A stretch of DNA of 64,000 nt. Source: a virus. Location of the stretch: positions 32,001 through 96,000 of IMG/VR virus record IMGVR_UViG_3300034101_006340. One strand, written 5' to 3'. Positions 3,751 to 21,895 of this stretch are shown in pieces; the first letter of the stretch is position 1; every line of letters starts with the position of its first letter. The position numbers and the translations under genes were made by a program. Under the pieces are notes generated by a model. That model had not been told where the DNA came from. It saw only the letters and a program-made list of their open reading frames with translations, and ran no database searches.

Positions 3751-4521
3751 CTATCTAAGATCGTTTGGATTATTTTCTGCCACTAGTCGGCCAACCTCTG
3801 GAACAAATTTAATATTATCAGATCCAATATGATTGCTAAGACATAAAAAAGATATTTTTTCAGCATCACCAAAAATTCCTTGGTCAAAAATTTGCGATAC
3901 TCTTAAATAAGAATTTGCATATTTATTCATTATTTTAGAACCACCAAAAGCAAATCTTATTAAATCTCCCATCTCGCCCTTTTCCCAATAATGAGATGTA
4001 TATATTTTACTACAATCTGTAAACTGATGTAAATTCAGTAAATTATTTAGATTATATTGCATATCCGGGCGTAGTCTAAAAACAAAATCATACAGTAAAT
4101 TTGATGAGTACTCAACTTCCTTTTTTAAGATATTACAATAATAAATTAATCCAAATTGTTTAAAACAGTGCAAAACATCATTTTGTATAGCCCTGTCATC
4201 AAAGTTATACTCTTGATCGGTCATGTCTGTATAATTAAAAGGACTATATGTTGAAGAAAAAAAATCGTCTTTAAGTATTCTTACGTGATTTGTTTCGTAG
4301 TCTTTTTTTATTTGATTCGAAGATACTATCATATCAGATGACCCTGTCGCATTAAGATTATGTGCTGCTGACCAAGATTTGTTTGTGTTTAATTTATCCC
4401 ATGTGCATACAAATGTGTCGATGATACCAAATTGACTATAGTGTTGTTTAAACATATAATAATTATCTAATAATTTTTGATAATTTCTCATGTGACCAGA
4501 GATACAAAAAGCAATTCTCAT
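3751..4521 (-). CDS. Putative glycosyltransferase-like protein
   Basis: N-terminal RIAFCISGHMR and internal YDFVFRLRPD motifs, a pattern I associate with phage/bacterial glycan-locus proteins; sugar-cluster context. Confidence 0.5.
   Translation of the reverse strand: MRIAFCISGHMRNYQKLLDNYYMFKQHYSQFGIIDTFVCTWDKLNTNKSWSAAHNLNATGSSDMIVSSNQIKKDYETNHVRILKDDFFSSTYSPFNYTDMTDQEYNFDDRAIQNDVLHCFKQFGLIYYCNILKKEVEYSSNLLYDFVFRLRPDMQYNLNNLLNLHQFTDCSKIYTSHYWEKGEMGDLIRFAFGGSKIMNKYANSYLRVSQIFDQGIFGDAEKISFLCLSNHIGSDNIKFVPEVGRLVAENNPNDLR
4432..4460 (+). promoter_or_regulatory. Possible antisense sigma70-type promoter inside the 3751..4521 gene
   Basis: TTGACT (4432-4437), 17 nt, TATAAT (4455-4460); could be a chance match in AT-rich DNA. 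Confidence 0.3.
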
Positions 4522-4964
4522 AATAAATAATCTCTATAAGACTGAATATAATCGCTACATATACCAGCACAACTATAATATAATTTATTTTTAGACCATG
4601 GCTGTTGATCTAGGCATATCGAATACTCTTGTAGCTCATGCATAGGATATGTCCATATATAATTATTACTAGTTAATGTGTAATAATCATTTTGATGCCA
4701 AAAGCAAGCCATGTCTAATTTAAGCAATAGAGTTAATGCTGTAATATTTTTTGCATGACACCATAATCTATTTTTATTATCGATTAAAAAACTTTCATTT
4801 ATCCGATAATCACAAGAGTCATGTCCCAAGTACCATTGATTATTCTCAACTGTTAAATCTATTTCAACATCAAAATCTTTGTTTATAGCTTCTAAAATAT
4901 AAGAGGGAGAATTTTCGTATTTATTAACACCATCAGTATTGCCTCTATGCGAAATAAAAAACAT
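4518..4964 (-). CDS. PLC-like/GDPD-like phosphodiesterase (truncated TIM barrel)
   Basis: ISHRGN...ENSP...DVEIDL motifs of the glycerophosphodiester phosphodiesterase family. Confidence 0.7.
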   Translation of the reverse strand: MFFISHRGNTDGVNKYENSPSYILEAINKDFDVEIDLTVENNQWYLGHDSCDYRINESFLIDNKNRLWCHAKNITALTLLLKLDMACFWHQNDYYTLTSNNYIWTYPMHELQEYSICLDQQPWSKNKLYYSCAGICSDYIQSYRDYLL

Positions 4965-4971
4965 ATTATTT

Positions 4972-5292
4972 TTATATGATATATTTATCTGATGGTACAG
5001 ACGGCCATTTAATCACAATAAGATCGACATCCTCTAAAACAGTAACATCAGCTATGTCATAAGGTTCATACAAGAACATGTCGCCCCTAGACAATATGCG
5101 ACCAGATACTAATAGTTTACCAGAAATAATATACGTCAATTCTTGAGATATTTTATGCGTATGTGGTTGAGCCTCATGACCGGCTTTATGAGAATGGTGA
5201 GCAACTTCAAAAGAACTATTTCTAAAAACGGAAGGATAGAAATCTCCTATAAACCATCCATTTTTCATTTCACTAATGTTATATGTTTTCAT
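4972..5292 (-). CDS. Cupin (RmlC-like) protein
   Basis: GWFIGDF, HSHKAGHEAQPHTHKISQELTYIISG cupin motif 1, GDMFLYEP motif 2. Confidence 0.7.
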   Translation of the reverse strand: MKTYNISEMKNGWFIGDFYPSVFRNSSFEVAHHSHKAGHEAQPHTHKISQELTYIISGKLLVSGRILSRGDMFLYEPYDIADVTVLEDVDLIVIKWPSVPSDKYII

Positions 5293-6458
5293 ATATCTGA
5301 TAACTCTTGAACTCGCACTTGATGTCTTCCTCCATCAAAAGTATTATTTATTAAAATTTTAATAACGCTTTCTGCTTTACTAGTATCAGCAAAAATTTTA
5401 CTTGGGAAAGAAAAATAATTTGCACAACTATGCCTGATAGACATTTCAGCAGAATATTCGTCATAAATTAATGCTCCTCGAATACCATTAAATTTATTAC
5501 CACATATATTTACGCCCTGTCCGGTTCTACAAAAAGCGAAAATAAAATCACAAACTCCGTCTTGCTTAGAAACAATAGCTTGATTTATATAATATTTATA
5601 ATCACAATCGTTGTGAGTGTGTGTGCCAAAGTCTATATATTCTATACCCAATTTAGATAATATATCCGCAAATATTTGTTTTGTTTCATACCCAGAATGA
5701 TCAGCACATAATGCTATTGGTTTTACGCCTATGTGTTTAACAACATTATTTTTATAAAACATAAATTCTTTTGGCGTCCCAAAAATATGTATTTTATCTA
5801 CTAGTCTATCTATTATATTTTTATTATCTTTTATCAATAGATTATATAAAGGAGTGATATAAAACTCTCCATTAGTAGTAATATTATTTTTAATCATTGT
5901 ATCGGCATATTCACAAAACATAGATCCTTTAGCAAAATAATAAATACCTACACACGCCCTGTCACTAATAACTTTTTTTTCTGCCGTTAAAGTAATATAC
6001 TTATTATTATCATCTAATTTTACATAACTATAATTTGGAGAATTAGATTTAAAAGTTAATAGCGTACCATCAATACCATCGTCCGCCAAAGAAGATGGAT
6101 CTAAGACCGGGAAAAACTCTATATCTAATGTATGAATAATTAGAGGCATATCATTATTGATTACTTCTTTTGCCAATAAACAACTACACACTGAGCCTTT
6201 TGTTAAGCCATCAGTAATAAAAATTTTAATATCATCTCCAAATTTATTGCGTAAAATTGTGTCAGCATTATAGTTATAAACCTGATCATCTCTAACAATA
6301 AAAATTAAATTACACTCTGAATAGTCAATACAACTTAATGATATATCGATAAGTTGTTTATTTTCTACATAAATAAATTGTTTTGGCACCTCGTATCCCG
6401 CTTCCTTAAAACGACTACCTAATCCCGCCATAGGAACAATAAGATTATATTTTTTCAT
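5289..6458 (-). CDS. Fusion of a sugar-phosphate nucleotidyltransferase (NTP_transferase) and a C-terminal RpiB-like isomerase
   Basis: N-terminal IVPMAGLGSRF..GY..PK, AEKK, ACVGIYYF, EFYITP; C-terminal ADHSG, FCRTGQGV, RH-x-x-AN, FDGGRHQVRV. Confidence 0.85.
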   Translation of the reverse strand: MKKYNLIVPMAGLGSRFKEAGYEVPKQFIYVENKQLIDISLSCIDYSECNLIFIVRDDQVYNYNADTILRNKFGDDIKIFITDGLTKGSVCSCLLAKEVINNDMPLIIHTLDIEFFPVLDPSSLADDGIDGTLLTFKSNSPNYSYVKLDDNNKYITLTAEKKVISDRACVGIYYFAKGSMFCEYADTMIKNNITTNGEFYITPLYNLLIKDNKNIIDRLVDKIHIFGTPKEFMFYKNNVVKHIGVKPIALCADHSGYETKQIFADILSKLGIEYIDFGTHTHNDCDYKYYINQAIVSKQDGVCDFIFAFCRTGQGVNICGNKFNGIRGALIYDEYSAEMSIRHSCANYFSFPSKIFADTSKAESVIKILINNTFDGGRHQVRVQELSDI

Positions 6459-7173
6459 GGTTATTTCTATTTATTAATTTATTTTTTGTTTTTAATATTG
6501 CATTAACTAAATTATCTTTGATATACATATATCCCCATTGATCTATAATAAAACCAGCCAAAATATCTCCTGCTCCATTAACATTCAATCCTTCTATAGG
6601 AATATTTTCTACGCAGCAAACACTATTTCCGTCAACAACAATTTCTACTCCAAAAGGATCATGAAATATAATAGGAGTTTTTGTTCTAATAGAACAGTAC
6701 ATATTCTTTCTTTCTCTGGAATCAAAAATAATTTTAGCTTGATTTATTAATTGTATAAATTTAGTCCTGTCAGCCGAACTAGTACAAAAGTCTAAGCTAA
6801 AATTGGACACAATGTTTTGTACGGATAAATAATCTTCAAAATCATCAATATATGCAAAATGAACCCAGCTGGCTGTATTTAAATATTCGATATCTTTTTT
6901 ACTAATGATCGAAGCTTCTGTGTTTTTAACAAAAGACATTCTTGTACTATTAGCAATATCGCAAATAATATACGCTTTTTTTAACCCTATCCTATGACAA
7001 TGAAGAGTATAATTTAAAAAATTAACCTCATTAAAGTTGTTGTATCCTCCAATAATTTTTTGAAGATTAGTGTAGTAATTAGTTTCATTGAGTTGTATAT
7101 TCTGTGTTTCTATAATTGTGTCGAAATATTTTTTACCACAAACAATTAAGCTATGGTTTTTTCGTTGTATCAT
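6445..7173 (-). CDS. PfkB/ribokinase-family carbohydrate kinase
   Basis: C-terminal VNGAGDILAG anion-hole/catalytic Asp motif. Confidence 0.7.
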   Translation of the reverse strand: MIQRKNHSLIVCGKKYFDTIIETQNIQLNETNYYTNLQKIIGGYNNFNEVNFLNYTLHCHRIGLKKAYIICDIANSTRMSFVKNTEASIISKKDIEYLNTASWVHFAYIDDFEDYLSVQNIVSNFSLDFCTSSADRTKFIQLINQAKIIFDSRERKNMYCSIRTKTPIIFHDPFGVEIVVDGNSVCCVENIPIEGLNVNGAGDILAGFIIDQWGYMYIKDNLVNAILKTKNKLINRNNHEKI

Positions 7174-7174
7174 C

Positions 7175-7699
7175 TTAAAAAGTTTCTTGTTTATCTAGCT
7201 CTTCTATATCGGATAGACCAACATATTTTACCATTTGACGTTCAATAAGAACATTATAAAGATCACAAATAACATTATTTCCGCCTTTAGAAGATAATGT
7301 ATTTTTTATGCCACACAAACTTTTTATGTCTTCACAAGCATCTTGTGGACAAAAACAATATCCAACGCTTTTCATTATATTAATATCGAATAAGTCGTCT
7401 CCTACATAAACCATATCTTTTTTATGAATACGATACTTTTCTTCCAATATTGGCAACAATGATACCTTATCAATTCCTCTTGAACTAAAAAAGTCTATGT
7501 TTCTATTCTTGGCCATATTTTCATTAACTTTGATATCTCCAGAAATAAAACAAACAACTATATCAGAAGCTTTAAATCTTTTAATAGCTGTAAAATCTTT
7601 ATCACAGTATTTTTTAGCATATGGCATCCCATCGAGTCCATAAATTTTTGTACCATCCGTCATAACTCCATCGACATCTAGGGCTATTAATTTAATCAT
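7175..7699 (-). CDS. kdsC: KdsC/YrbI-family HAD phosphatase
   Basis: LDVDGVMTDG, DFTAIK, FISG, K, YVGDDLFD, SKGGNNVI pattern typical of KDO-8-P/NeuNAc-9-P phosphatases. Confidence 0.8.
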   Translation of the reverse strand: MIKLIALDVDGVMTDGTKIYGLDGMPYAKKYCDKDFTAIKRFKASDIVVCFISGDIKVNENMAKNRNIDFFSSRGIDKVSLLPILEEKYRIHKKDMVYVGDDLFDINIMKSVGYCFCPQDACEDIKSLCGIKNTLSSKGGNNVICDLYNVLIERQMVKYVGLSDIEELDKQETF

Positions 7700-8463
7700 A
7701 TTTTTAACAGATGCTCCTTTGGTTCATCATCAAATTGTTCGATAGACTCGTGAACCATATGAGGAGGTGGAACGCCCCCGGATTCTGTAAGCCAGTGTTG
7801 ACTCCAAAAATTTTTATTTCTGATTAATCTGGCTTCCAAGTCCACATATCCAGTATGAATAACATAGGGTGTTTTTCCTTGCCTTAACGCTTCAATCGAA
7901 TTGTCAAACATACGAGACTTAACTAAATTACCATTTTTATCAATTAGCTCACAAGTATCGCTTTTGGTTGTATCAACTGTTCCATTCGATTTTCTCGCAA
8001 AGTTTACTGGACCTCTGAAAAGACCGCTTTTATGTAAATACCATTTGTGTCCTATAGAATAATAATGATTAAAATCTTTGTAAAGATTTAATGAAGCAAT
8101 CATATAACACATATATGTATCACACAATAAATTATCTGCTAAATCTAACCATAATGATTTTTGATACAATGGAATATATTCATCCATATCTAATCCAATT
8201 TTAAGTAATTGAGTAGTATTTTGTAGGGCGCAGTTTTTTATTTTTCCATCCATCCAAGGGTCTTCGTAGGAAAAATCACAAGACACCACCTTTAGATTAT
8301 CGAGTTCATGCGAAAGTTTTTGGATTTCTATTAAAGTATCATCTGAGCTAGAATTTATAGCAATAACAACTTCATCGGCAAAATCAGAAAATTTTTGTAA
8401 AGTATTTTTGTAATCAAATTTGTTTTTGATAAGATTAAAAGCAGATGTATAGATAGAAATCAT
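7696..8463 (-). CDS. Glycosyltransferase family 2-like
   Basis: DEVVIAINSSSDDTL, KNCAL and LDMDEY (DxD-type) motifs. Confidence 0.75.
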   Translation of the reverse strand: MISIYTSAFNLIKNKFDYKNTLQKFSDFADEVVIAINSSSDDTLIEIQKLSHELDNLKVVSCDFSYEDPWMDGKIKNCALQNTTQLLKIGLDMDEYIPLYQKSLWLDLADNLLCDTYMCYMIASLNLYKDFNHYYSIGHKWYLHKSGLFRGPVNFARKSNGTVDTTKSDTCELIDKNGNLVKSRMFDNSIEALRQGKTPYVIHTGYVDLEARLIRNKNFWSQHWLTESGGVPPPHMVHESIEQFDDEPKEHLLKI

Positions 8464-9026
8464 ATTATGTCAATCCCCAAAAGATCAAATACAGCATTTG
8501 CTATTTGACTTGGTTCAATGGTTTGAATAAGGCCATAAGGATCATTGTAATGGAAAGTTGGCTTAGTGCTAGAGAAATCTGGTTCAAATATTCTAATATT
8601 ATTTTCATTAGAAAAGTATGGCCTAGACATGTTTGCGTAATATCCGTATAAAGCGACTATCTTTATATCATAATACGAAGCTAAATGCACGGGCAAACTA
8701 TCAAAACCAAGATGTAATTGAGCGTTTTTGATCAAAAAAGCTAAACTACCATAAGATGTTTTACCCAGATAATCATGATTAGCTCCCTGGCATTTAGGAT
8801 CTAATAACCCTCCAGTTTGAACGATTTCATAAGTAAAATTAGGATTATTTTTGAGAATACTAATAACATTTTCCCATTTGTTATATAATCTTGCTGTTCC
8901 TTTGGGGTCATAAGAATGAAGAGTTATGTATTTCGTAGAGGGCAAGACTATCGAGGAGTCTTCTTTTATAAACGGCTTAGCAATAGGACACCCGCAGGTC
9001 AGTGCATAAGTTTCTAATATGTGCAT
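8460..9026 (-). CDS. GT9 (ADP-heptose:LPS heptosyltransferase-like), C-terminal domain only
   Basis: LGKTSYGSLAFLIKNAQLHLGFDSLPVHLAS...IVALYG matches the GT9 C-domain consensus GKTSLxELAALI...DSGxxHLAAA...VALFG. Confidence 0.8.
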   Translation of the reverse strand: MHILETYALTCGCPIAKPFIKEDSSIVLPSTKYITLHSYDPKGTARLYNKWENVISILKNNPNFTYEIVQTGGLLDPKCQGANHDYLGKTSYGSLAFLIKNAQLHLGFDSLPVHLASYYDIKIVALYGYYANMSRPYFSNENNIRIFEPDFSSTKPTFHYNDPYGLIQTIEPSQIANAVFDLLGIDII

Positions 9027-9028
9027 AA

Positions 9029-9427
9029 TTATATTGTTTCTTTCATTTGAAGTCCTATTCTGGTTTGTCCATTATGAATATAATTTAGATATCTTTGAGT
9101 AAACACAGTAATCATGAAGCTAATGTCAAATAGTCCTTGCCATTTACCGTGTCCTTCCATAATGAGTTGGTTTTCCATAATTGGCATATAATTAATCACT
9201 TTAGCGATATTTGGATTATCTAACAACAATGAATGATATTGTTCCTTACAAGCAAAATATATATCATATTCCGGATATAGCTTTTTCATAGATGGTAATA
9301 AACTAGTAGATAAAAAAATATCTCCAGCACTTTCAGGAACTATCATTAGAATCTTTTTATTATCTGATTGAATTAGTTGTTGTGCTATAATAGCTAATTG
9401 AGAATCATAGTCTTGTTTTGTATCCAT
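9029..9427 (-). CDS. GT9 (heptosyltransferase-like), N-terminal domain only
   Basis: KKILMI...AGDIFLSTSLLPSMKKLYPEYDIYF...LLLDNPNIAKVI matches the GT9 N-domain; AAGGA SD-like sequence upstream. Confidence 0.8.
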   Translation of the reverse strand: MDTKQDYDSQLAIIAQQLIQSDNKKILMIVPESAGDIFLSTSLLPSMKKLYPEYDIYFACKEQYHSLLLDNPNIAKVINYMPIMENQLIMEGHGKWQGLFDISFMITVFTQRYLNYIHNGQTRIGLQMKETI

Positions 9428-9450
9428 ATAATTCCTTAATATACTGATTT

Positions 9451-9478
9451 ATCATAGATATTTGTCTGTACCGGTCAA
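9451..9478 (-). promoter_or_regulatory. Leftward sigma70-type promoter of the minus-strand sugar operon
   Basis: On the minus strand: TTGACC (9478-9473), 16 nt, TATGAT (9456-9451), then AAGGA and the ATG at 9427. Confidence 0.65.
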
Positions 9479-9489
9479 GAATCTTGACC
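9473..9489. repeat. Perfect 8-1-8 palindrome GGTCAAGA-A-TCTTGACC containing both -35 boxes
   Basis: Read directly from the sequence. Confidence 0.9.
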
Positions 9490-9511
9490 ATAGACATTGT
9501 TAACTTATAAT
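9484..9511 (+). promoter_or_regulatory. Rightward sigma70-type promoter of the plus-strand sugar operon
   Basis: TTGACC (9484-9489), 16 nt, TATAAT (9506-9511); ATG at 9536. Confidence 0.7.
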
Positions 9512-9535
9512 AGTTTGTTTCCACAGAGACTGAAA

Positions 9536-10402
9536 ATGATTATAGCCATAGCTTCGGATCATAATGGGATTGCTCTCAAACAATCCATTAAAACTTTTCT
9601 GATAAATAAATCTTATAAAGTTATTGATCTCGGACCATACTCGAATGAAACTGTTAATTATACAGATTATGCTGATCAACTTGCGCATATTGTTTCCAAC
9701 ACAGAAGTAGATAGAGGAATTTTGATATGTGGTACTGGCGTTGGTATGAGCATTGTAGCAAATAGACACAAAAATGTTAGAGCTGTTTTGGCACACAACA
9801 TGATAACGGCAACCAAGTCGAGAGAGCATAATAATGCCAATGTTTTATGTTTGGGGTCTTGGGTAAATAATGAGCCAGATAATCTGGACATTCTTGATGC
9901 TTGGCTATCGGAATCGTGGGGAGAAGGCAGACACGTTAAAAGAGTAGAAGTAATAGACCAAAAAGACACAGGCATTGTATTAACAAACGGTGTGTTCGAC
10001 ATCATGCATAAAGGTCATCTTGAGCTTTTAAAGTTTGCAAAAAAACAAGGCACCAAATTAGTTGTAGCGATTGATTCCGATGCTAGAGTTAAACTGCTCA
10101 AAGGTCCAAGCCGACCAATTAACAATGAAATAGATAGAAAAAGCTTACTGGAATCTAATATCTATGTTGATGAAGTGATTATTTTTAATACACAGGAAGA
10201 ACTGATTAATTTATATGCCTCAGTTAGGCCGTCTGTTGTGGTTAAAGGCTCGGAATGGACCGCTGATCAAGTACGAGAGCAAGATCATATACCAGATAAT
10301 ATTCAAATTAAATTATATCCATTATTTAAAGATTATTCTACAACCAGCACAATAAAAAACATAAAAGACATTCCAACATGGCAGAAAATAAAAAACTACT
10401 AA
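9536..10402 (+). CDS. rpiB: Fusion of RpiB (ribose-5-P isomerase B-like) and an HldE/RfaE domain II-type (HxGH) nucleotidyltransferase
   Basis: SDHNG, ICGTGVGM, EHNNAN, EGRHVKRV; then TNGVFDIMHKGH, DSDARVKLLKGPSRPIN, VKGSEW, STTSTI. Start moved from TTG 9497 to ATG 9536 because the TTG lies within the promoter. Confidence 0.9.
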   Translation: MIIAIASDHNGIALKQSIKTFLINKSYKVIDLGPYSNETVNYTDYADQLAHIVSNTEVDRGILICGTGVGMSIVANRHKNVRAVLAHNMITATKSREHNNANVLCLGSWVNNEPDNLDILDAWLSESWGEGRHVKRVEVIDQKDTGIVLTNGVFDIMHKGHLELLKFAKKQGTKLVVAIDSDARVKLLKGPSRPINNEIDRKSLLESNIYVDEVIIFNTQEELINLYASVRPSVVVKGSEWTADQVREQDHIPDNIQIKLYPLFKDYSTTSTIKNIKDIPTWQKIKNY

Positions 10403-12896: not shown

Positions 12897-13636
12897 TTTA
12901 TTCTCAAATTAGAAAAAATTTAGTACATCGTTTAATAGATATATCTTATAAGAATAAAGAAGGCCATATAGGTAGCTCATTATCTATTTTAGACTTATTA
13001 TATGGGATTTATCATAGCTACAATTTATTTGATCAGTTTGTTTTATCAAAGGGTCATGCCTCATTAGGGCTGTATGTTATACTAGAACATTTTGATTTGC
13101 TTCATGATTCTTTAGATAATTTTTGTAAGTTTGATTCTCGTCTAGGGGGACATCCATACTGTTATTCAGATTCTAGTATTCAGTGCGCTACTGGATCTTT
13201 GGGACACGGATTTCCTTTTGCTTTAGGACTATCAATGGCAAAAAAAATACAGAAAGACATCGGCAGAGTCTATTGTATAATAGGAGACGGAGAAGCTAAT
13301 GAAGGGACCATATGGGAAACAGCTTTATTGGCTTCTCATATGAAAATAAACAATCTATATTGCATAATGGATTATAACCATTCTGGAGACAGAGCACTGG
13401 GTCTTGGTAATATAATTGAAAAATTTGAGGCTTTTGGCTGGGATTCGACAGAGATTGATGGACACAACATGTCTGAAATTTTAAATGCACTAAAGTATCG
13501 ATCCTCCAAACCATTTTTTATTCTTGCTCATACCATCAAAGGATATGGGATACCGAGTATACATAATAATCCTGAATGGCATCATAAGTCTCCTAATGAA
13601 TCTGAATACCAATTTCTAGTATCTCAATTACAATAA
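12893..13636 (+). CDS. Transketolase, N-terminal (TPP-binding) subunit
   Basis: GHIGSSLS, LSKGHA, LGGHP, TGSLGHG, GDGEANEG..W, DGH, HTIKGYG, WHH; the ATG at 12893 forms an ATGA overlap with the tal stop. Confidence 0.9.
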   Translation: MIYSQIRKNLVHRLIDISYKNKEGHIGSSLSILDLLYGIYHSYNLFDQFVLSKGHASLGLYVILEHFDLLHDSLDNFCKFDSRLGGHPYCYSDSSIQCATGSLGHGFPFALGLSMAKKIQKDIGRVYCIIGDGEANEGTIWETALLASHMKINNLYCIMDYNHSGDRALGLGNIIEKFEAFGWDSTEIDGHNMSEILNALKYRSSKPFFILAHTIKGYGIPSIHNNPEWHHKSPNESEYQFLVSQLQ

Positions 13637-13654
13637 ATAAGCGAAGAAAAATAA

Positions 13655-14338
13655 ATGAAACACGATAAACCAATATGTGGTAGTAATATTGCTAAAGTTA
13701 ATAGATATATTAGTAATGCTAATATAGTATTCGAAATAGGGGCTTATGATGGCGTCGATATCGAAGAAATTAACCAGCTTTGGAATAACCCCATCATTCA
13801 TTGTTTTGAACCAGATCCAGAACCATTTGAGATATTGAATACATATGCTTCAGAAAAAATAATATGTAATAATATTGGACTTTTCGATAAAGAAGATAAA
13901 ACCATACTATATAAAGTACTTAATAAAAATCTTGGCGAAGCAGAACAAAAAAATAGAAGTCTGTGGTATAAAACTGCTCAATCTTTATATCCAATAAATA
14001 CAAACTATTATGGATATCCAAGAGATATTGGCCTACAGGAAGTAGAAATTAATGTATCTACTATAGATAACTACTGTAAAAAATACAACATTATGCCAAA
14101 TATTATTCTGATGGATACACAAGGTAGTGAATATGATATTTTAATCGGAGCACAAAACACATTAAAAAACAATAATTTAAAAGGTATTATGCTGGAATGG
14201 TCTACAGACACACTGTATACTGGTCAAAAAAAATTAAATGATATCACAACACTACTTGAAACAACCGGTTTTGTATTGGCAGAAAAAATTAATTTATGGA
14301 ATGCAATTCATGGTGATGCTATCTTTATAAGAAAATAA
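13655..14338 (+). CDS. FkbM-family SAM-dependent methyltransferase
   Basis: FEIGAYDG, HCFEP, TIDNY, LMDTQGSEYDILIG, IMLEWS, GDAIF. Confidence 0.85.
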   Translation: MKHDKPICGSNIAKVNRYISNANIVFEIGAYDGVDIEEINQLWNNPIIHCFEPDPEPFEILNTYASEKIICNNIGLFDKEDKTILYKVLNKNLGEAEQKNRSLWYKTAQSLYPINTNYYGYPRDIGLQEVEINVSTIDNYCKKYNIMPNIILMDTQGSEYDILIGAQNTLKNNNLKGIMLEWSTDTLYTGQKKLNDITTLLETTGFVLAEKINLWNAIHGDAIFIRK

Positions 14339-15217
14339 ATGCGTAAACAATTTGCTAAAACACTCCAGAATATTCTATATAAAGACTCCAATTCCGTATT
14401 GTTATTAGGAGATATAGGCGTATTTGCTTTTAGAAAAGAAATAGAAGAATTATCAGACAGAGTATATAATATAGGAATTTTAGAACAATCCACTGTTAGT
14501 TTAGCCGCTGGGCTATCTAAAAATGGTATAATTCCTTTTGTTCATACAATAGCTCCCTTTATGGTAGAAAGAGCTTTTGAACAAATCAAAATAGATTTTG
14601 GCTATCAGAATTTAAATGGCAATTTCATTAGCGTCGGCTCTTCTTACGATTATGCTGGGCTTGGTTGTACTCATCATTGTCCTGGCGATGTGTCTTTGAT
14701 GCTAACTGTGGAAAATATGCACATATTTTTACCTGGCAATAGTAAAGAATTAGACGATTTAGTTAATCAATCGTATGTTTTAAAGCATCCAAAATATTAT
14801 AGATTAAGTGAATATGAGCACAGCTTATCTCTAGAATTAGAGTATGGTAAAGCCAAGCTTATTAAGCGAGGTCAAAAAGCAACCATAATATGTTATGGTC
14901 CGATGCTTCAACAGGTATATGAAGCAACAGAAGATTTGGATGTGACAGTTCTTTATTACAATACCGTATACCCGTTCGACTGCAAAACTTTGCTGGACAA
15001 CTTGAGTCAAAACATTATTATATGTGAGCCATTCTATATTGGTACAACTAATTATCTTATTACAAACGCTATAAAAAACACATATTATAAAATACATAAT
15101 ATTGGTGTGCCAAGAAAATTTTTGAAAAATTATGGCAATAAACAAGACCATGATCAATTTTTAAGTTTGGACACAACCGGTATAAAAAATCAAATAGAAT
15201 CATGCTTGATATCATAA
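14339..15217 (+). CDS. Transketolase, C-terminal subunit
   Basis: MRKQF, NIGILEQ, AAGL, THH, YYRL and CEPF motifs of the pyrimidine-binding and C domains. Confidence 0.9.
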   Translation: MRKQFAKTLQNILYKDSNSVLLLGDIGVFAFRKEIEELSDRVYNIGILEQSTVSLAAGLSKNGIIPFVHTIAPFMVERAFEQIKIDFGYQNLNGNFISVGSSYDYAGLGCTHHCPGDVSLMLTVENMHIFLPGNSKELDDLVNQSYVLKHPKYYRLSEYEHSLSLELEYGKAKLIKRGQKATIICYGPMLQQVYEATEDLDVTVLYYNTVYPFDCKTLLDNLSQNIIICEPFYIGTTNYLITNAIKNTYYKIHNIGVPRKFLKNYGNKQDHDQFLSLDTTGIKNQIESCLIS

Positions 15218-16227
15218 CTGATGATTGCCAGAATATAGCCGATAAAATTAATAGCACCAAATTAGCTAACAAAAAAATCTTAATAACGGGTGCCACAGGA
15301 TTGATAGGTCTACATTTGGCTAAATCAATAATATCTATTAAACAAAATAATAAACTTGTTTGTCTATTTAATTCAGAGATAGATCCTAAAATAAGACCCC
15401 TATTCGATGACAACAATTTGTCTTGTGTTGCCTATGATCTTACTGATTTGAATTGGAAGTATTTAAATGAATTTGTTGCTGAGTTTGATATTATCATTCA
15501 TGCTGCTGGATATGGTCAACCAAATAGATTTACTGCTAATAAAATAAAAACAATATCACTAAATACAGAAATTACACATAGATTATTTAACCATTTAAAG
15601 CCGGGGGGAACTTTTTTATTTTGCAGTACTAGCGAAATATATAGTGGTTTAGAAAAAAATAATATTTCTGAGGATGATATTGGTGCAACTCAGCCAGATC
15701 ATCCAAGATCATGTTATATAGAAGGCAAAAGATGTGGGGAAGCCATATGCCACGCTATTAAAGATCAATATCCCGATAAGCAATATAATATTAAAATAGC
15801 GAGAATTAGCTTAGCATATGGTCCCGGAACTAGAATCAATGATGCTAGAGTATTAAATAATCTTATTCAAAAGGCTATACAAAACAATAAGATAGAATTA
15901 TTAGATAATGGTAGTGCTATTAGAACTTATGGTTATATTACAGATATTACTGAAATGCTATTGAATATTATGTTGCACGGTCAACACTCAACATATAATA
16001 TAGCTGGTCAATCTCGATTATCTATACTAGAATTAGCCTCAAAAGTAGCATCTCTGACCGATAGTCCTTTAATAGTGCCTGAAAGCACTAATGGTTTGGC
16101 GGGTAATCCTAAAAATGTTAACTTATGTTTAGATAGATATGCTAAAGAATTTCATAAATCAGACTTTATAGACATAGATACTGGATTACAAAAAACAATT
16201 CAATGGCAAAGGTTTTTATATGCATAG
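15202..16227 (+). CDS. NAD-dependent epimerase/dehydratase (UDP-glucuronate decarboxylase-like SDR)
   Basis: ITGATGLIG, HAAG, STSEIY, CYIEGKR, YGPG, RTYGYITD. Confidence 0.85.
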   Translation: MLDIITDDCQNIADKINSTKLANKKILITGATGLIGLHLAKSIISIKQNNKLVCLFNSEIDPKIRPLFDDNNLSCVAYDLTDLNWKYLNEFVAEFDIIIHAAGYGQPNRFTANKIKTISLNTEITHRLFNHLKPGGTFLFCSTSEIYSGLEKNNISEDDIGATQPDHPRSCYIEGKRCGEAICHAIKDQYPDKQYNIKIARISLAYGPGTRINDARVLNNLIQKAIQNNKIELLDNGSAIRTYGYITDITEMLLNIMLHGQHSTYNIAGQSRLSILELASKVASLTDSPLIVPESTNGLAGNPKNVNLCLDRYAKEFHKSDFIDIDTGLQKTIQWQRFLYA

Positions 16228-17146
16228 AATATTAAGTCAAGATATTGAAAAAATATTATCATTACCAGTACCAAAACATATTGCAAATAAATTAGATTCT
16301 ATAGATGAATCTTTAATATATACAGACTTATCACCAGTAGACTATGAACAATATCTTATACATGTTATAAATGTACTAACAACACCCATAACTCAAAGTG
16401 GACCACATAGACTACAAGACTGGGAAAAGGGCTGGAAAGAAAACTTAGTAGAATTTGCTAAAACTCAAAATACTAATTTATTAATACCTAAATATCATGG
16501 TAAACACCGATATGTAAGATGGCAAGGTAGAATAGTTAATCCTGTAACGAAATATTTTGACTATAAAATTCATACATATATTATAGATACTATAATCGAT
16601 CACTATGTAAAAAATATTAATAATATTTATGAATTTGGCTGTGGCCCAGCGTACCACCTACTAAGATTATCTTCTTACTATAACGATAAACAATTCTTTG
16701 GATTAGATTGGACAAGTACATCGCAAGAAATTATTCAGTTGATTAATGAAATAAATAATACGTCTATTATTGGTAATAGATTTGATTTTTTTAGTCCAGA
16801 CTATAATGTAATTATACATCCAAATAGTTTAGTATATACCATAGCGGCGCTCGAACAAGTTGGTAAAAATTTTGTTAATTTTATTGATTATTTACTAAAA
16901 AACAAACCACAAATTTGTATACATCTTGAGCCCATGTCTGAAACATTAAATAAAGATAGTTTGGTTGATTTATTATCTATTAAATATTTTGAAAAACGTA
17001 ATTATTTATCTGGATTCCTAGAATATCTATCGGCTCTTGAAAAACAAAAAAGAATAGAAATCATAGATGTTCGTAGAACATATGCTGGCAGCTATTTTAT
17101 AGAAGGACACTCGCTGGTTGTTTGGAGACCATTAACTAATGATTAG
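16220..17146 (+). CDS. Class I SAM-dependent methyltransferase
   Basis: YEFGCGP glycine motif, GLDW, FDFF, ALEQ. Confidence 0.75.
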   Translation: MHRILSQDIEKILSLPVPKHIANKLDSIDESLIYTDLSPVDYEQYLIHVINVLTTPITQSGPHRLQDWEKGWKENLVEFAKTQNTNLLIPKYHGKHRYVRWQGRIVNPVTKYFDYKIHTYIIDTIIDHYVKNINNIYEFGCGPAYHLLRLSSYYNDKQFFGLDWTSTSQEIIQLINEINNTSIIGNRFDFFSPDYNVIIHPNSLVYTIAALEQVGKNFVNFIDYLLKNKPQICIHLEPMSETLNKDSLVDLLSIKYFEKRNYLSGFLEYLSALEKQKRIEIIDVRRTYAGSYFIEGHSLVVWRPLTND

Positions 17147-17819
17147 TCTACTAATACCCACAAGAAAAAGATTTCATTTTATCAAAAAATCTCTTTCTAG
17201 TGTTGTGCGTCAAGCAGATGACATCAATCAATACGAGGTGTTGTTTGCTATCGATGATGATGATTTAGAAACGAGAGACTTAATAGAACAATATTGTATA
17301 GGACTAAAAATTAACTATAAAATTATTATCTTTAAAAGACTATACTATAAAAATTTTCATATATATGTCTACGAGCTTTTTCAACATGCTTCTGGTCAAT
17401 TATTATGGGCTGCCTATCCTGATGATATGGAAATACTAACACCTCATTGGGATACAATTTTAAATCAAAAATATATAGATAAGCTTTATTTGAAAACTAG
17501 ATTTAAATGCAATGAATATAAAAATAATTATGCTTGTGAATTTGATAGCTGGAAATACTCTGTTGCTCCCATTTTAAACAGAAGATGGTTGGATGCCACT
17601 AAAAGAATCGGATGTAATTCTCAAACTGATGTTTGGTTGGGCACAATAGCGAGCGAGCTTGATATTGTAACTATTGTTGATGAAATTACTTGCGATATTT
17701 TTAACCACGCAGACGGTTCTCAGCACAACACAAGAGATATAGAATTACCTGATATAAAAAAAGAATGGCTTCTAGACAAAACTAATATACAAGAACTTCT
17801 CAATAAGGATCTAAGATGA
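17139..17819 (+). CDS. Glycosyltransferase family 2-like
   Basis: ISLLIPTRKR, EVLFAIDDDD, YPDDM, DVWL. Confidence 0.7.
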   Translation: MISLLIPTRKRFHFIKKSLSSVVRQADDINQYEVLFAIDDDDLETRDLIEQYCIGLKINYKIIIFKRLYYKNFHIYVYELFQHASGQLLWAAYPDDMEILTPHWDTILNQKYIDKLYLKTRFKCNEYKNNYACEFDSWKYSVAPILNRRWLDATKRIGCNSQTDVWLGTIASELDIVTIVDEITCDIFNHADGSQHNTRDIELPDIKKEWLLDKTNIQELLNKDLR

Positions 17820-18724
17820 ATACTTTAGTGACTGGAGGAAAAGGATTAGTTGGCTCCTTTATACCCTTCGGATTAAAGCCAACAAAAGATATATTAAATT
17901 TATTAGACTATCAGGCTTTGGAAAGATATATAGAAAACAATAATATTTCAAGTATCATACATACAGCAGCCAAGGTTGGAGGTGTTCATAGTAATACAAA
18001 GTATGTGTTTGATTTTTTTGTAGACAATCTAAATATTAATACAAACATCCTCAAAGTCTGCCAAAAATATTCTATTAATAAGTCTTTATTTATGATCTCT
18101 ACCTGTGCATTTCCTAAAAATGCTCAACTACCACTACAAACAGAGTCATTGCACAATGGAGAGCCACATGAGACTAACTATGGCTATGCTTATGCAAAAA
18201 GAATGATAGAGGTTGGGATTAGATCATTAAAACAGCAATATAATCTAATGGCGAATTCTATTATTCCATGCAATCTTTATGGAGAGTATGATAATTACCA
18301 TTTAGAGAATGGCCATGTTATTCCTGGTTTAATTCATAAATGCTATCTAGCTAAAAAAAACAATACTACACTAGAAATTTGGGGGTCTGGCAATGCTGAG
18401 AGAGAGTTTATTTATGCAAAAGATATAGCTGATATAATTGATAGTATTCATAAGAATAATCTCTATATAGATGGGCCAATGATAGTATCTCCCGATTCTA
18501 TTATTACTATTAAAGAAATAGTTCATAATATAGTTAAAATTATGAAATTCAATGGTGAAGTATATTTTAATACTACAAAACCAGAGGGTATTCTCAAAAA
18601 AAATTCTTCTAACGCAAAGTTTAGAACACATTTTCCGGATTTTCAATTTACTGCTCTAGAAGAAGGTCTTGGTAAAACAATCGAATACTTTTTATCCAAT
18701 TACTCTTCTGTGCGACAACAATGA
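17816..18724 (+). CDS. fcl: GDP-L-fucose synthase-like epimerase/reductase
   Basis: VTGGKGLVG, AAKVGG, STCAFP, YAYAKR, NLYG, GHVIPGL, WGSG..REF.YA. Confidence 0.88.
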   Translation: MNTLVTGGKGLVGSFIPFGLKPTKDILNLLDYQALERYIENNNISSIIHTAAKVGGVHSNTKYVFDFFVDNLNINTNILKVCQKYSINKSLFMISTCAFPKNAQLPLQTESLHNGEPHETNYGYAYAKRMIEVGIRSLKQQYNLMANSIIPCNLYGEYDNYHLENGHVIPGLIHKCYLAKKNNTTLEIWGSGNAEREFIYAKDIADIIDSIHKNNLYIDGPMIVSPDSIITIKEIVHNIVKIMKFNGEVYFNTTKPEGILKKNSSNAKFRTHFPDFQFTALEEGLGKTIEYFLSNYSSVRQQ

Positions 18725-19062
18725 TATATTGTTTTGATATCGATGGAACACTGTGTACTCAAACCGATGGTAATTATGATAATGCTATACCTATCCAGCA
18801 CAGAATTGATATAGTTAATAGTCTATACGAAAACGGAAACACCATCTATCTTTTAACCGCAAGAGGAATGACAAGATCAAAAAATAATACTGCTATAGCT
18901 TATGGAGAAATGTATTCCCTTACTAAAGAACAATTATCTAAATGGGGTCTCAAATATCATATGCTGTTTCTAGGAAAGCCTAAAGCAGATTATTACATAG
19001 ATGACAAAGCGATGATCGATACAAAGTTTTTCCATGATGGATCGAGCGAAGCAGGCTCTTGA
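18721..19062 (+). CDS. Small HAD phosphatase (capsule-biosynthesis EcbF/BcbF-like)
   Basis: CFDIDGTLC, LTARGM, GKPKADYYIDDKA. Confidence 0.8.
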   Translation: MIYCFDIDGTLCTQTDGNYDNAIPIQHRIDIVNSLYENGNTIYLLTARGMTRSKNNTAIAYGEMYSLTKEQLSKWGLKYHMLFLGKPKADYYIDDKAMIDTKFFHDGSSEAGS

Positions 19063-19087: not shown

Positions 19088-19093
19088 AGAGCC

Positions 19094-21874: not shown

Positions 21875-21895
21875 TTCTATACGAGAGGCACTACA

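What the first reader, a model, noticed from the sequence alone, without database searches (positions are those of the whole stretch)
3751..19062. Twin divergent sugar-nucleotide operons in a phage: two parallel activation modules
About 15 kb (22 genes) forms two divergent operons with matching logic. Each has an RpiB domain fused to a nucleotidyltransferase, a PfkB kinase, a HAD phosphatase, a cupin and a GT2. The left operon adds a split GT9 and a phosphodiesterase. The right adds AraD, transaldolase, split transketolase, two methyltransferases, a UXS-like SDR and an Fcl-like SDR. Isomerase, kinase, phosphatase, nucleotidyltransferase, GT is the known order of the ADP- and GDP-heptose pathways. 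Two versions using different nucleotidyltransferase folds suggest a self-contained system making two unusual activated, possibly methylated, sugars. They could decorate the virion or remodel the host surface for superinfection exclusion.
Basis: partly seen in the sequence, partly recalled or inferred. Interest (0 to 1): 0.85.

Follow-up and report, generated by a model that had tools for sequence, protein, structure and literature searches.

The report
Two phage sugar-activation cassettes, back-to-back
A large lake-water phage carries, side by side, two separate gene sets that probably each turn a common sugar phosphate into a nucleotide-activated sugar; both sets are common in uncultured aquatic phages, but nobody has studied what they make or what gets glycosylated.

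Summary
The less obvious ones are a divergent PfkB kinase, a mini-cupin, a truncated GDPD-like phosphodiesterase, a GT2 and a second SAM methyltransferase.

The "twin system" reading is only partly right. Each arm is built around its own conserved cassette.
- Right core: RpiB-HldC fusion, PfkB kinase, AraD-like, cupin, transaldolase, mini-HAD. These genes lie contiguous in about 45 IMG/VR contigs. In this phage a seven-gene insert splits the cassette.
- Left core: HAD, PfkB, NDP-sugar pyrophosphorylase-RpiB fusion, mini-cupin, GDPD-like. It occurs in about 75 IMG/VR contigs and in cyanophages Bellamy and SynMITS9220M01.

The cassettes are analogous, not duplicates. None of six near-complete related genomes carries both.

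The best reading is two isomerase-kinase-phosphatase-nucleotidyltransferase routes. The right one makes an ADP-linked C7 or C8 sugar whose carbon skeleton is built by transaldolase, as in lincomycin octose synthesis. Soluble glycosyltransferases then use the products. The acceptor (virion protein, LPS core or DNA) is unresolved.

Independent lake metagenomes confirm the locus is contiguous. This is a new variant of the known phage "LPS-like" sugar islands. Other first-stage notes in this scan flag the same stretch.

The parts
3751..4521 (-). L9: 256-aa protein of a viral 'capsular polysaccharide biosynthesis'/DUF7796-like family; activity unknown. Last gene of the left operon.
   Evidence: No Pfam/PHROG/PDB sequence hit. 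Atlas: feature score 0.98 and TM 0.76-0.80 to viral clusters; the same fold occurs fused to sulfotransferase or GT92 domains. Homologs follow the left cassette in 12 of about 80 loci.
4518..4964 (-). L8: truncated GDPD-like phosphodiesterase (148 aa); member of the left core cassette.
   Evidence: phrog_34507. Invariant HRG..EN..ExD..LGHD motifs. Profile hit to GDPD 7e0v, E 0.008. AF2 pLDDT 95; best Foldseek hits are GDPDs, prob 0.97-0.99. Present in 70 of 81 left-cassette loci.
4972..5292 (-). L7: 106-aa mini-cupin; member of the left core cassette.
   Evidence: phrog_24762. Cupin motif HxHKx3Ex6G is invariant. Profile hits to KdgF and small M6P-isomerase cupins, E 1e-3. Present in 80 of 81 loci.
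5289..6458 (-). L6: fusion of an NDP-sugar pyrophosphorylase (GT-A fold, residues 1-235) with an RpiB-type sugar-phosphate isomerase (residues 245-389).
   Evidence: Pfam/NCBIfam. Profile vs PDB: 4evw, E 5e-25, for the N domain; RpiB structures, E 5e-28, for the C domain. Catalytic C-x-T-G and H-N, GGRH motifs invariant. More than 1200 homologs. 60% identical to Bellamy gp206.
6445..7173 (-). L5: divergent short PfkB/ribokinase-family sugar kinase.
   Evidence: A positional ortholog sits between the HAD and the fusion in 75 loci. NVLGAGD motif. Profile hits to ribokinase-family structures, E 5e-6.
7175..7699 (-). L4: HAD-IIIA phosphatase of the KdsC/YrbI type (terminal-phosphate sugar phosphatase).
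   Evidence: Hydrolase_3. TIGR01670 at 81.6 bits, below its cutoff of 107. Present in 76 of 81 loci.
7696..8463 (-). L3: GT2-type (GT-A) glycosyltransferase; lineage-specific.
   Evidence: Atlas: 27 of 30 nearest clusters are GT2, score 0.98, TM 0.85. DxD-like LDMDE motif. Absent from related loci.
8460..9026 (-). L2: C-terminal (donor-binding) half of a split GT9 heptosyltransferase-like enzyme.
   Evidence: PF01075 at 28.9 bits (cutoff 22); matches RfaQ/heptosyltransferase III positions 235-339. The split is identical in independent metagenome contigs.
9029..9427 (-). L1: N-terminal (acceptor-binding) half of the split GT9.
   Evidence: Weak NCBIfam matches to positions 1-67 of heptosyltransferases II/III/RfaF, E 1e-4 to 3e-3.
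9428..9535 (.). Divergent control region. The palindrome GGTCAAGATCTTGACC (9474-9489) supplies two -35-like boxes, with -10-like TATAAT (9506-9511, plus strand) and TATGAT (9456-9451, minus strand).
   Evidence: Promoter-like sites are not enriched over shuffles across the region, so function is inferred from position only.
9536..10402 (+). R1: fusion of RpiB isomerase (N) with an HldE-domain-II/HldC-like adenylyltransferase (C); first gene of the right core cassette.
   Evidence: LacAB_rpiB 163 bits; CTP_transf_like 59 bits; rfaE_dom_II 121 bits (cutoff 181). CGTG, HN, GRH and HxGH motifs invariant. At least 1390 homologs. ATG 9536 fits the 286-288-aa homologs.
10378..11142 (+). R2: PfkB kinase nearest to HldE domain I (heptose-7-P 1-kinase).
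   Evidence: PF00294; rfaE_dom_I 67 bits (cutoff 345). Follows R1 in 45 of 46 loci.
11142..11822 (+). R3: AraD-like class II aldolase/4-epimerase.
   Evidence: Aldolase_II 141 bits; AraD subfamily 217 bits (cutoff 257). Present in 39 of 46 loci. No counterpart in cultured phages.
11779..12219 (+). R4: 146-aa cupin, nearest to the PMI-type cupin.
   Evidence: Cupin_1, MannoseP_isomer, Cupin_2. Present in 44 of 46 loci. Only weakly related to L7 (hhalign E 1e-4).
12216..12896 (+). R5: short transaldolase (Tal type, not FSA type).
   Evidence: TAL_FSA 130 bits. Best PDB hits are B. subtilis and T. acidophilum transaldolases. The equivalents of TacTal D6, E60, K86, T110 and F132 are kept. About 35% identical to cyanophage TalC versus 43-54% to cassette orthologs.
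12884..13636 (+). R6: transketolase N-terminal (ThDP-binding) subunit; first gene of the 5.8-kb lineage-specific insert.
   Evidence: Transketolase_N 105 bits. Absent from cassette relatives.
13655..14338 (+). R7: FkbM-family methyltransferase.
   Evidence: Methyltransf_21, TIGR01444. An FkbM gene also follows the cassette in 16 related loci.
14339..15217 (+). R8: transketolase C-terminal (pyrimidine-binding plus C) subunit.
   Evidence: Transket_pyr, Transketolase_C.
15202..16227 (+). R9: extended SDR of the NDP-sugar dehydratase/decarboxylase/epimerase type.
   Evidence: Epimerase 123 bits; weak matches to dTDP-glucose dehydratase and UXS/ArnA models.
16220..17146 (+). R10: class I SAM-dependent methyltransferase of a large family without a Pfam model.
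   Evidence: EFGCGPA motif. 857 homologs, none with a Pfam domain. AF2 pLDDT 88.6; Foldseek E 1e-8 to AtmM/CouO/NovO.
17139..17819 (+). R11: GT2 glycosyltransferase.
   Evidence: Glycos_transf_2 29.8 bits.
17816..18724 (+). R12: Fcl-like SDR (NDP-4-keto-6-deoxy-sugar epimerase/reductase type).
   Evidence: Epimerase 141 bits; GDPFucSynFcl 202 bits (cutoff 500).
18721..19062 (+). R13: 113-aa minimal HAD phosphatase (1xpj/9iqw type); last gene of the right core cassette, displaced here by the insert.
   Evidence: All four HAD motifs invariant. Profile hits 9iqw 'capsule biosynthesis protein', E 3e-22, and 1xpj, E 2e-16. Directly follows the transaldolase in most relatives.

Best explanation
The 15-kb block is a phage glycan-building island. 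It was assembled from two unrelated but analogous sugar-activation cassettes set back-to-back around one divergent control region, and each cassette has been extended with lineage-specific tailoring enzymes and glycosyltransferases.

Each cassette encodes a self-contained four-step route:
1. A ketose phosphate from central metabolism is isomerised to an aldose phosphate (RpiB domain and/or the small cupin).
2. The aldose phosphate is phosphorylated at C1 (PfkB kinase).
3. It loses its terminal phosphate (HAD phosphatase).
4. It is coupled to a nucleotide by the transferase fused to RpiB.

In the right arm the transferase and kinase are HldE-like, so the product is most likely ADP-linked. A true transaldolase is part of the conserved core. 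In this phage a split transketolase has been added, and RpiB and an AraD-like enzyme are also present. The carbon skeleton is therefore built on site. It is either sedoheptulose-7-P, giving an ADP-heptose, or an octulose-8-P made from ribose-5-P as in lincomycin biosynthesis, giving an ADP-octose. Two SDRs and two methyltransferases then tailor the sugar.

The left arm makes a second NDP-sugar with a GT-A-fold pyrophosphorylase.

All 22 proteins are soluble, and there is no flippase, polymerase or lipid-carrier transferase. The split GT9, the two GT2s and the unknown L9 must therefore act on an acceptor reachable from the cytoplasm. My ranking of acceptors is: virion proteins (about 35%), the host LPS core on the inner face of the membrane (about 30%), phage DNA (about 20%).

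Shown: domain identities, intact motifs, cassette conservation, independence of the two cassettes, and contiguity of the locus. Inferred: the order of reactions, the sugar identities and the acceptor.
For: - Domain identities.
- Catalytic motifs are invariant in both RpiB domains, the HxGH transferase motif, the PfkB GAGD motif and all four HAD motifs.
- The right core genes R1-R2-R3-R4-R5-R13 lie contiguous and in the same order in about 45 viral contigs.
- The left core genes L4-L5-L6-L7-L8 occur in about 75 viral contigs and in cultured cyanophages.
- RpiB has been fused independently, in opposite orders, to two unrelated nucleotidyltransferase folds. This argues that RpiB belongs to the activation route and not to general metabolism.
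- The kinase and the transferase of the right arm score best against HldE domains I and II.
- R5 keeps the transaldolase-type residues.
- There are precedents for the same logic: ADP-heptose synthesis; the lincomycin octose route LmbR/N/P/K/O (PMC4351081, PMC5854111); and phage UDP-arabinofuranose synthesis with a 1xpj-type HAD (PMC13326640).
- No viral GmhA/SIS gene is present in five near-complete cassette-bearing genomes.
- In relatives the cassette's neighbours are GT11, GT4, FkbM and SDR genes.
- None of the 22 proteins has a transmembrane segment.
- The locus is contiguous in independent lake metagenomes.
Against: - No enzyme was assayed.
- All matches to HldE, AraD, Fcl and KdsC models fall below the curated equivalog cutoffs, so substrate assignments are by analogy.
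- Which of RpiB or the cupin performs the committed isomerisation is unknown.
- AraD-like enzymes are not part of any known heptose or octose route.
- GT9 accompanies the right cassette in only 1 of 5 related genomes, which weakens the heptose reading.
- The role of the GDPD-like protein in the left core is unexplained.
- The cassette sits next to nucleotide and DNA-metabolism genes here and in relatives, which fits a DNA target as well as it fits a glycan on protein or lipid.
Confidence: 0.6

Rival explanations
1. DNA hypermodification. One or both activated sugars are transferred to a hydroxylated or hydroxymethylated base in phage DNA to block host nucleases. This would resemble arabinosyl-5-hydroxycytosine in RB69/DLP3, whose UDP-arabinofuranose is made by an isomerase-kinase-HAD-nucleotidyltransferase set.
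For: - The route has the same four-step logic, and R13 belongs to the same 1xpj-type mini-HAD class named for the phage Araf-1,5-bisphosphate phosphatase.
- The island abuts dCMP deaminase, RNR and PhoH. The window also holds a T4 gp1-type dNMP kinase and a PD-(D/E)XK nuclease.
- In T4-like relatives the right cassette lies 2-6 kb from PhoH, PD-(D/E)XK and a 'GT4-conflict' glycosyltransferase. A homolog of that GT4 sits beside the DNA polymerase in this window.
- Host-type promoter-like sites suggest early expression.
Against: - No thymidylate-synthase-like base hydroxylase or hydroxymethylase was found in the window, and none was noted elsewhere in the genome (unverified notes).
- GT9, GT11, GT2, FkbM methyltransferases and Fcl-like reductases are typical of glycans on lipid or protein, not of known DNA sugars.
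- Two sugar routes plus four or more transferases is more than any known DNA modification needs.
Confidence: 0.2
2. Central-carbon auxiliary metabolic genes. RpiB, AraD, transaldolase and transketolase boost the host pentose phosphate pathway for nucleotide synthesis, as proposed for cyanophage talC. The sugar-nucleotide genes would be unrelated neighbours.
For: - The four enzymes nearly complete the non-oxidative pentose phosphate pathway.
- The transaldolase has intact Tal-type residues.
- The block adjoins nucleotide-metabolism genes.
- talC is a classic cyanophage gene.
Against: - Both RpiB domains are covalently fused to nucleotidyltransferases.
- The transaldolase is locked in a fixed six-gene order with the kinase, HAD and transferase in about 45 contigs.
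- It is only about 35% identical to cyanophage TalC.
- AraD is not ribulose-phosphate 3-epimerase.
- The transketolase halves are separated by a methyltransferase and are followed by SDRs and a GT2.
Confidence: 0.08
3. A captured or mis-binned host LPS/capsule locus with no phage-specific role (passenger DNA or an assembly chimera).
For: - Homologous cassettes occur on contigs labelled as Pelagibacter, Prochlorococcus, DPANN archaea and Acidobacteria MAGs/SAGs.
- One left-fusion homolog lies on a 3.77-Mb NCBI contig.
Against: - GC content is uniform with the rest of the phage.
- Contigs from three independent runs bridge the island into flanking phage genes with 0-1 differences.
- The stretch recurs in 20 lake runs.
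- Both cassettes are found in near-complete Gp23-positive viral genomes and in cultured cyanophages.
- The genes are intact and tightly coupled.
Confidence: 0.03

Closest known systems
ADP-L-glycero-beta-D-manno-heptose pathway (GmhA, HldE or HldA/HldC, GmhB, GT9 heptosyltransferases)
   Same: It follows the same order of chemistry: ketose-P isomerase, C1 kinase, terminal phosphatase, adenylyltransferase. The kinase and transferase of the right arm score best against HldE domains I and II. A GT9-like transferase is present.
   Different: - There is no SIS-type GmhA; an RpiB domain and/or a cupin stands in.
- The transferase is fused to the isomerase, not to the kinase.
- The phosphatase is a 105-aa 1xpj-type HAD, not GmhB.
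- A transaldolase and an AraD-like enzyme are core members.
- All scores are below the equivalog cutoffs.
- The GT9 is split and is not conserved with the cassette.
Lincosamide octose activation (LmbR transaldolase, LmbN isomerase, LmbP kinase, LmbK phosphatase, LmbO guanylyltransferase; Sasaki 2012 and Lin 2014, as cited in PMC4351081 and PMC5854111)
   Same: This is the only characterised route in which a dedicated transaldolase is an integral member of an isomerase-kinase-phosphatase-nucleotidyltransferase set. Its acceptor, ribose-5-P, is the product of an RpiB reaction.
   Different: The enzymes are of different families: SIS isomerase versus RpiB/cupin, and GDP- versus ADP-type transferase. 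It is a natural-product pathway of actinomycetes. No sequence orthology was tested here.
Phage UDP-arabinofuranose pathway for arabinosyl-5-hydroxycytosine DNA (RB69, DLP3, HY126 AfhE/AfhF; PMC13326640)
   Same: It is phage-encoded, uses the same four-step logic starting from a pentose-phosphate-pathway ketose, and has a small 1xpj-like HAD phosphatase.
   Different: - Its isomerase is a SIS arabinose-5-P isomerase.
- Its kinase is an APH-like domain fused to the transferase.
- It is accompanied by a ThyA-like 5-hydroxy-dCMP synthase, which was not found here.
- Its glycosyltransferases are GT-B enzymes that act on DNA.
'LPS-related' gene clusters of cyano- and pelagimyophages (rfaE, glycosyltransferases in the host-recognition cluster; PMC7029224)
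   Same: They share the ecological setting and gene classes. The left cassette is present in cyanophages Bellamy and SynMITS9220M01, and both cassettes occur in Gp23-positive T4-like contigs.
   Different: Those reports list individual genes. They do not describe the two conserved cassettes, the RpiB fusions or the transaldolase-containing core. The window phage is a different, freshwater, roughly 234-kb lineage that carries both cassettes together.

Membership tests
ADP-heptose biosynthesis pathway | SIS-family sedoheptulose-7-P isomerase (GmhA) | tested here: not met
   None of the 22 proteins has a SIS domain. PF13580 is found in 0 of 5 near-complete genomes that carry the right cassette.
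ADP-heptose biosynthesis pathway | HldE domain I / HldA heptose-7-P 1-kinase | tested here: inconclusive
   R2 scores best against TIGR02198, but at 67 bits versus a cutoff of 345.
ADP-heptose biosynthesis pathway | HldE domain II / HldC heptose-1-P adenylyltransferase | tested here: inconclusive
   The R1 C domain scores 121 bits against TIGR02199 (cutoff 181.5). The HxGH motif is invariant.
ADP-heptose biosynthesis pathway | GmhB-type HAD-IIIA 7-phosphatase | tested here: not met
   R13 is a 1xpj/9iqw-type mini-HAD. L4 is KdsC-like. Neither matched a GmhB model.
ADP-heptose biosynthesis pathway | GT9 heptosyltransferase using the product | tested here: inconclusive
   A split GT9 is present in the opposite arm. 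GT9 is found in only 1 of 5 related genomes that carry the cassette.
Lincosamide-type octose activation (LmbR/N/P/K/O) | Dedicated transaldolase as an integral pathway member | tested here: met
   A Tal-type R5 with catalytic residues kept lies in fixed order within the cassette in 43 of 46 loci.
Lincosamide-type octose activation (LmbR/N/P/K/O) | Formation of octulose-8-P from ribose-5-P and its conversion to an NDP-octose | not testable with these tools
   This needs enzyme assays.
Phage NDP-arabinofuranose / glycosylated 5-hydroxycytosine system | ThyA-like 5-hydroxy- or 5-hydroxymethyl-pyrimidine synthase | tested here: not met
   No thymidylate-synthase-like domain was found among the window ORFs scanned. 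The rest of the genome could not be searched.
Phage NDP-arabinofuranose / glycosylated 5-hydroxycytosine system | Small 1xpj-like HAD sugar-bisphosphate phosphatase | tested here: met
   The R13 family profile hits 1xpj at E 2e-16. 1xpj is the fold hit reported for DLP3 gp81/RB69 gp51.
Phage NDP-arabinofuranose / glycosylated 5-hydroxycytosine system | SIS arabinose-5-P isomerase and an APH-like kinase fused to the nucleotidyltransferase | tested here: not met
   The isomerases here are RpiB, the kinases are PfkB, and the fusion partner of the transferase is the isomerase.
Phage 'LPS-like' sugar/glycosyltransferase islands of aquatic myophages | Clusters of nucleotide-sugar enzymes and glycosyltransferases in a phage genome, without export or polymerisation genes | tested here: met
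   Phage context. Gene content. No transmembrane proteins. Relatives are Gp23-positive. The category is described in PMC7029224.

The most novel reading that the evidence does not exclude
The two RpiB-fusion cassettes define undescribed nucleotide-sugar pathways that are common in aquatic phages. In them an RpiB domain (or mini-cupin) replaces the SIS isomerase. In the right cassette a dedicated transaldolase builds a C7 or C8 skeleton, giving an ADP-activated higher-carbon sugar, possibly an octose. Such a sugar has not been reported for any virus. It is then methylated or deoxygenated and placed on virions or on DNA.
Probability: 0.3. Interest if true: 0.75.

Novelty: new variant of a known kind. 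Interest (0 to 1): 0.6.

Why it matters
Sugar genes in marine and freshwater phages have been listed as "LPS-related" for twenty years, yet no product or target has been defined. This analysis reduces a 22-gene island to two compact, conserved cassettes of five and six genes. Each is represented by more than a thousand metagenomic protein clusters, and the left cassette is present in cultured cyanophages, so the question can now be tested at the bench. If the products are new ADP- or NDP-linked heptoses or octoses, they would add a new isomerase solution (RpiB in place of GmhA) to nucleotide-sugar biochemistry. They would also show what abundant aquatic phages glycosylate: their own particles, the host envelope or their DNA.

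Tried and rejected
I could therefore not fetch the closest relatives (75-98% identical proteins known from Logan/ENA assemblies) or examine the 3.77-Mb contig that carries a left-fusion homolog.
- Single-protein pattern scans of IMG/VR found nothing. Alignment-based scans were needed.
- The one metagenome scan returned only HldC-domain relatives, not close kin.
- Megablast of the island against cultured phages gave no match.
- Single-sequence PDB searches of the four unknown proteins gave only noise. Family profiles or folds resolved them.
- No RNA holder was listed among the sequencing runs, so expression could not be examined.
- Promoter-like sites are no more frequent than in shuffled sequence, so the timing of expression remains an inference.
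- A literature search for PDB entry 9IQW, for the Bellamy phage and for RpiB-nucleotidyltransferase fusions returned nothing relevant. The primary LmbR/LmbK papers are not held, so I cited them through secondary sources.
- I considered and rejected a Kdo-type route for the left arm. L4 is a KdsC-like HAD, but no KdsA/NeuB-type synthase or KdsB-type transferase is present.
- I considered and rejected the idea that the two arms are duplicates. Their HADs, transferases and kinases are of different subfamilies, and their cupins are barely related.

Full report
**Observation.** The window is a piece of an uncultured large phage with about 31% GC. Around the finding lie UvsX, a DnaB-type helicase, a primase, a two-part DNA polymerase, a class II ribonucleotide reductase, PhoH, an HNH endonuclease, dCMP deaminase and a T4 gp1-type dNMP kinase. 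The protein cluster that holds one of the island's proteins sits on a contig of 233.7 kb. Between 3751 and 19062 there are 22 overlapping or abutting genes, nine on the minus strand and thirteen on the plus strand. They diverge from the only real intergenic gap, at 9428-9535.

- an NTP-transferase-RpiB fusion
- an RpiB-HldE-domain-II fusion
- a PfkB/HldE-domain-I kinase
- an AraD-like enzyme
- a cupin
- a transaldolase
- transketolase N and C halves with an FkbM methyltransferase between them
- two extended SDRs, one of them Fcl-like
- a GT2
- two HADs
- the two halves of a GT9

**The genes that Pfam missed.** Six genes had no family hit, and single-sequence PDB searches were uninformative. 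Alignments built from related loci resolved five of them.
- 6445-7173 is a short, divergent PfkB kinase. It has the NVLGAGD motif, and its profile hits ribokinase-family structures at E 5e-6.
- 4972-5292 is a 106-residue cupin with the HxHx4Ex6G motif.
- 4518-4964 is a truncated GDPD-like phosphodiesterase with the HRG, EN, ExD and HD motifs. Its AlphaFold model has pLDDT 95, and its best structural neighbours are GDPDs.
- 7696-8463 is a GT2.
- 16220-17146 has a class I SAM methyltransferase fold. It belongs to a family of more than 850 proteins without a Pfam model.

3751-4521 belongs to a viral "capsular polysaccharide biosynthesis"/DUF7796-like family whose activity is unknown.

**Is the locus real?** The 7.6-kb stretch that spans both fusions is held almost word for word in 20 lake-water or freshwater metagenome runs from 20 studies. 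In three runs not flagged as possible sources, assembled contigs bridge three junctions with 0-1 differences:
- from the 862-residue flanking gene into the left arm
- from the split GT9 across the divergent region into the right arm
- from the right arm into dCMP deaminase

The island is therefore not a chimera with a host LPS locus, and the GT9 split is not a sequencing error.

**Two independent cassettes.** The right fusion has at least 1390 homologous protein clusters, nearly all with the same two domains. The left fusion has at least 1213.

In 46 IMG/VR loci fetched with the right fusion, six genes recur contiguously and in the same order: RpiB-HldC, PfkB kinase, AraD-like, cupin, transaldolase and a mini-HAD of about 105 residues. 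They are present in 46, 45, 39, 44, 43 and 41 of the 46 loci. In the window this cassette has been opened between the transaldolase and the HAD. A 5.8-kb insert sits there, containing transketolase-N, FkbM, transketolase-C, an SDR, a methyltransferase, a GT2 and an SDR. None of these genes accompanies the cassette elsewhere.

In 80 loci fetched with the left fusion, a different five-gene core recurs: a KdsC-like HAD (76 loci), a PfkB kinase (75 positional orthologs), the NDP-sugar pyrophosphorylase-RpiB fusion, the mini-cupin (80) and the GDPD-like protein (70). The same core is in the cultured cyanophages Bellamy (genes 204-208) and SynMITS9220M01, at 60% identity for the fusion. The split GT9 and the GT2 upstream of it are unique to the window lineage.

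**Analogous, not duplicated, and not a pair.** The two cassettes share a logic but not an ancestry.
- The transferases have different folds: a cytidylyltransferase-like HxGH fold versus a GT-A pyrophosphorylase like 4evw.
- The HADs are of different classes: 1xpj/9iqw-type versus KdsC-type.
- The kinases are distant from each other.
- The cupins are barely related (hhalign E 1e-4).
- The RpiB domain is N-terminal in one fusion and C-terminal in the other.

In five viral genomes estimated 93-100% complete that carry the right cassette, the left fusion is absent. In a 100%-complete genome that carries the left cassette, the right fusion is absent. The five of these genomes that I tested all encode a T4-type Gp23 capsid protein. 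It refutes the "twin system" idea but strengthens each arm as a self-sufficient module. No cultured phage in the collection has the RpiB-HldC fusion or the AraD-like gene.

**Mechanism.** Catalytic signatures are invariant across each family:
- the C-x-T-G, H-N and G-R-H motifs of both RpiB domains
- the HxGH motif of the HldC-like domain
- the GAGD motif of the kinases
- all four HAD motifs of the mini-HAD

The order isomerase, C1 kinase, terminal phosphatase, nucleotidyltransferase is established for three routes. The first is ADP-heptose. The second is the lincomycin GDP-octose route, LmbN/P/K/O preceded by the transaldolase LmbR, which joins a C3 unit from fructose-6-P or sedoheptulose-7-P to ribose-5-P (PMC4351081, PMC5854111). 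The third is phage UDP-arabinofuranose (PMC13326640).

In the right cassette the kinase and the transferase score best against HldE domains I and II, although below the curated cutoffs. The transaldolase keeps the Asp, Glu, Lys, Thr and Phe of true transaldolases rather than the Gln/Tyr of fructose-6-P aldolases (the residue roles come from my knowledge of the T. acidophilum enzyme). It is also more consistently present than the AraD-like gene.

A dedicated transaldolase is unnecessary if the substrate is simply a central metabolite. Its presence suggests that the skeleton is built on site. That skeleton would be sedoheptulose-7-P from erythrose-4-P, or octulose-8-P from the ribose-5-P that RpiB can supply. 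The added transketolase in this phage fits either route.

No viral GmhA is present in five related genomes, so RpiB or the PMI-like cupin must do the isomerisation, unless the host does. I cannot say which of the two acts, nor what the AraD-like and GDPD-like proteins do.

**Acceptor.** None of the 22 proteins has a membrane-spanning segment, and there is no flippase, polymerase, ligase or polyprenyl-phosphate transferase. The acceptor is therefore reachable from the cytoplasm. The three candidates rank as follows.
- Virion protein (about 35%). The convergent neighbour is an 862-residue protein with 15% Ser, 14% Asn and 8% Thr. The L9 fold occurs fused to sulfotransferase and GT92 domains in viral proteins. 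First-stage notes report further sugar genes among the packaging and virion genes (unverified).
- Host LPS core (about 30%). This rests on the GT9 similarity and on the usual reading of such genes in pelagi- and cyanomyophages (PMC7029224).
- Phage DNA (about 20%). The island lies in a nucleotide-metabolism setting. R13 is of the same 1xpj class as the phage arabinose-bisphosphate phosphatase. In relatives the cassette sits close to PhoH, a PD-(D/E)XK nuclease and a "GT4-conflict" transferase, and a homolog of that transferase sits next to the DNA polymerase in the window.

Two points count against DNA. No ThyA-like base hydroxylase was seen in the window. The commonest neighbours of the cassette in relatives are GT11, FkbM and SDR genes, which are typical of glycans. 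These three figures are my judgement.

**Comparison and novelty.** That aquatic myophages carry rfaE-like genes and glycosyltransferases is known, and the four-step activation logic is textbook. I could not find the following described in the searchable literature:
- the two compact conserved cassettes
- the double, independent fusion of RpiB to two unrelated nucleotidyltransferases
- the transaldolase-containing core that parallels the lincomycin octose route
- the mini-HAD and the mini-GDPD as fixed members of the cores
- the occurrence of both cassettes back-to-back in one freshwater jumbo phage

I class the finding as a new variant of a known kind. Membership in the ADP-heptose pathway proper is not established. 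The defining GmhA and GmhB are not met, and the HldE-like scores are below cutoff.

**Limits.** The closest relatives and the rest of this genome could not be examined. The cellular labels of some MAG/SAG contigs that carry the cassettes were not checked for viral origin. No expression data were available. All substrate and acceptor assignments are inferences.

Noticed in passing
window 36362-38113: A 583-aa GT4/GT-B glycosyltransferase lies right after the DNA polymerase genes. Homologs (21-26% identity, E down to 4e-14) lie 2-4 kb upstream of the right cassette in six T4-like viral contigs, where Pfam calls the family 'GT4-conflict'. It may be the transferase that travels with the cassette.
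   Followed up: partly
window 31553-35923: The DNA polymerase is encoded in two ORFs (31553-33433 and 34298-35923). Between them is a 230-aa RNase T/DnaQ-like exonuclease gene (33609-34301).
   Followed up: no
window 19059-19087: A perfect sigma-70 consensus (TTGACA, 17 nt, TATAAT) lies at the end of the mini-HAD gene, inside the annotated 5' end of dCMP deaminase. The deaminase probably starts further downstream.
   Followed up: no
window 29932-30522 and 19034-19561: A T4 gp1-type dNMP kinase and a dCMP deaminase are present, but no thymidylate-synthase-like gene was seen in the window. Whether the phage replaces a base is open.
   Followed up: partly
window 1161-3749: An 862-aa protein with 15% Ser, 14% Asn and 8% Thr has no family hit. 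It is convergent with the left operon, ending 1 nt from it. It is a possible glycosylation acceptor or a fibre protein.
   Followed up: partly
window 45817-59142 (minus strand): Two giant ORFs of 2688 and 1750 aa, presumably virion proteins. I did not examine them.
   Followed up: no
L001 (Synechococcus phage Bellamy, MF351863.1) 20900-25100: Besides the left cassette, Bellamy carries unfused relatives of right-arm parts in a second cluster: an AraD-like aldolase (gene 211), a mini-HAD like R13 (212), a GDPD-like protein like L8 (213), a kinase (215), a cupin (216), a nucleotidyltransferase (217) and two SDRs.
   Followed up: partly
window 5289-12896: The stretch is nearly invariant (0-1 differences over kilobases) in lake metagenomes sampled between 2016 and 2024. 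This points to a widespread, very homogeneous freshwater phage population.
   Followed up: partly
window 4518-4964 (model m0ccb7ceaaf5f): Structural neighbours of the mini-GDPD include the GDPD domains of the Staphylococcus phage K gp155 C-terminal domain and the phi812 central spike. These are virion enzymes, and by background knowledge GDPD domains of this kind are thought to act on teichoic acid.
   Followed up: no
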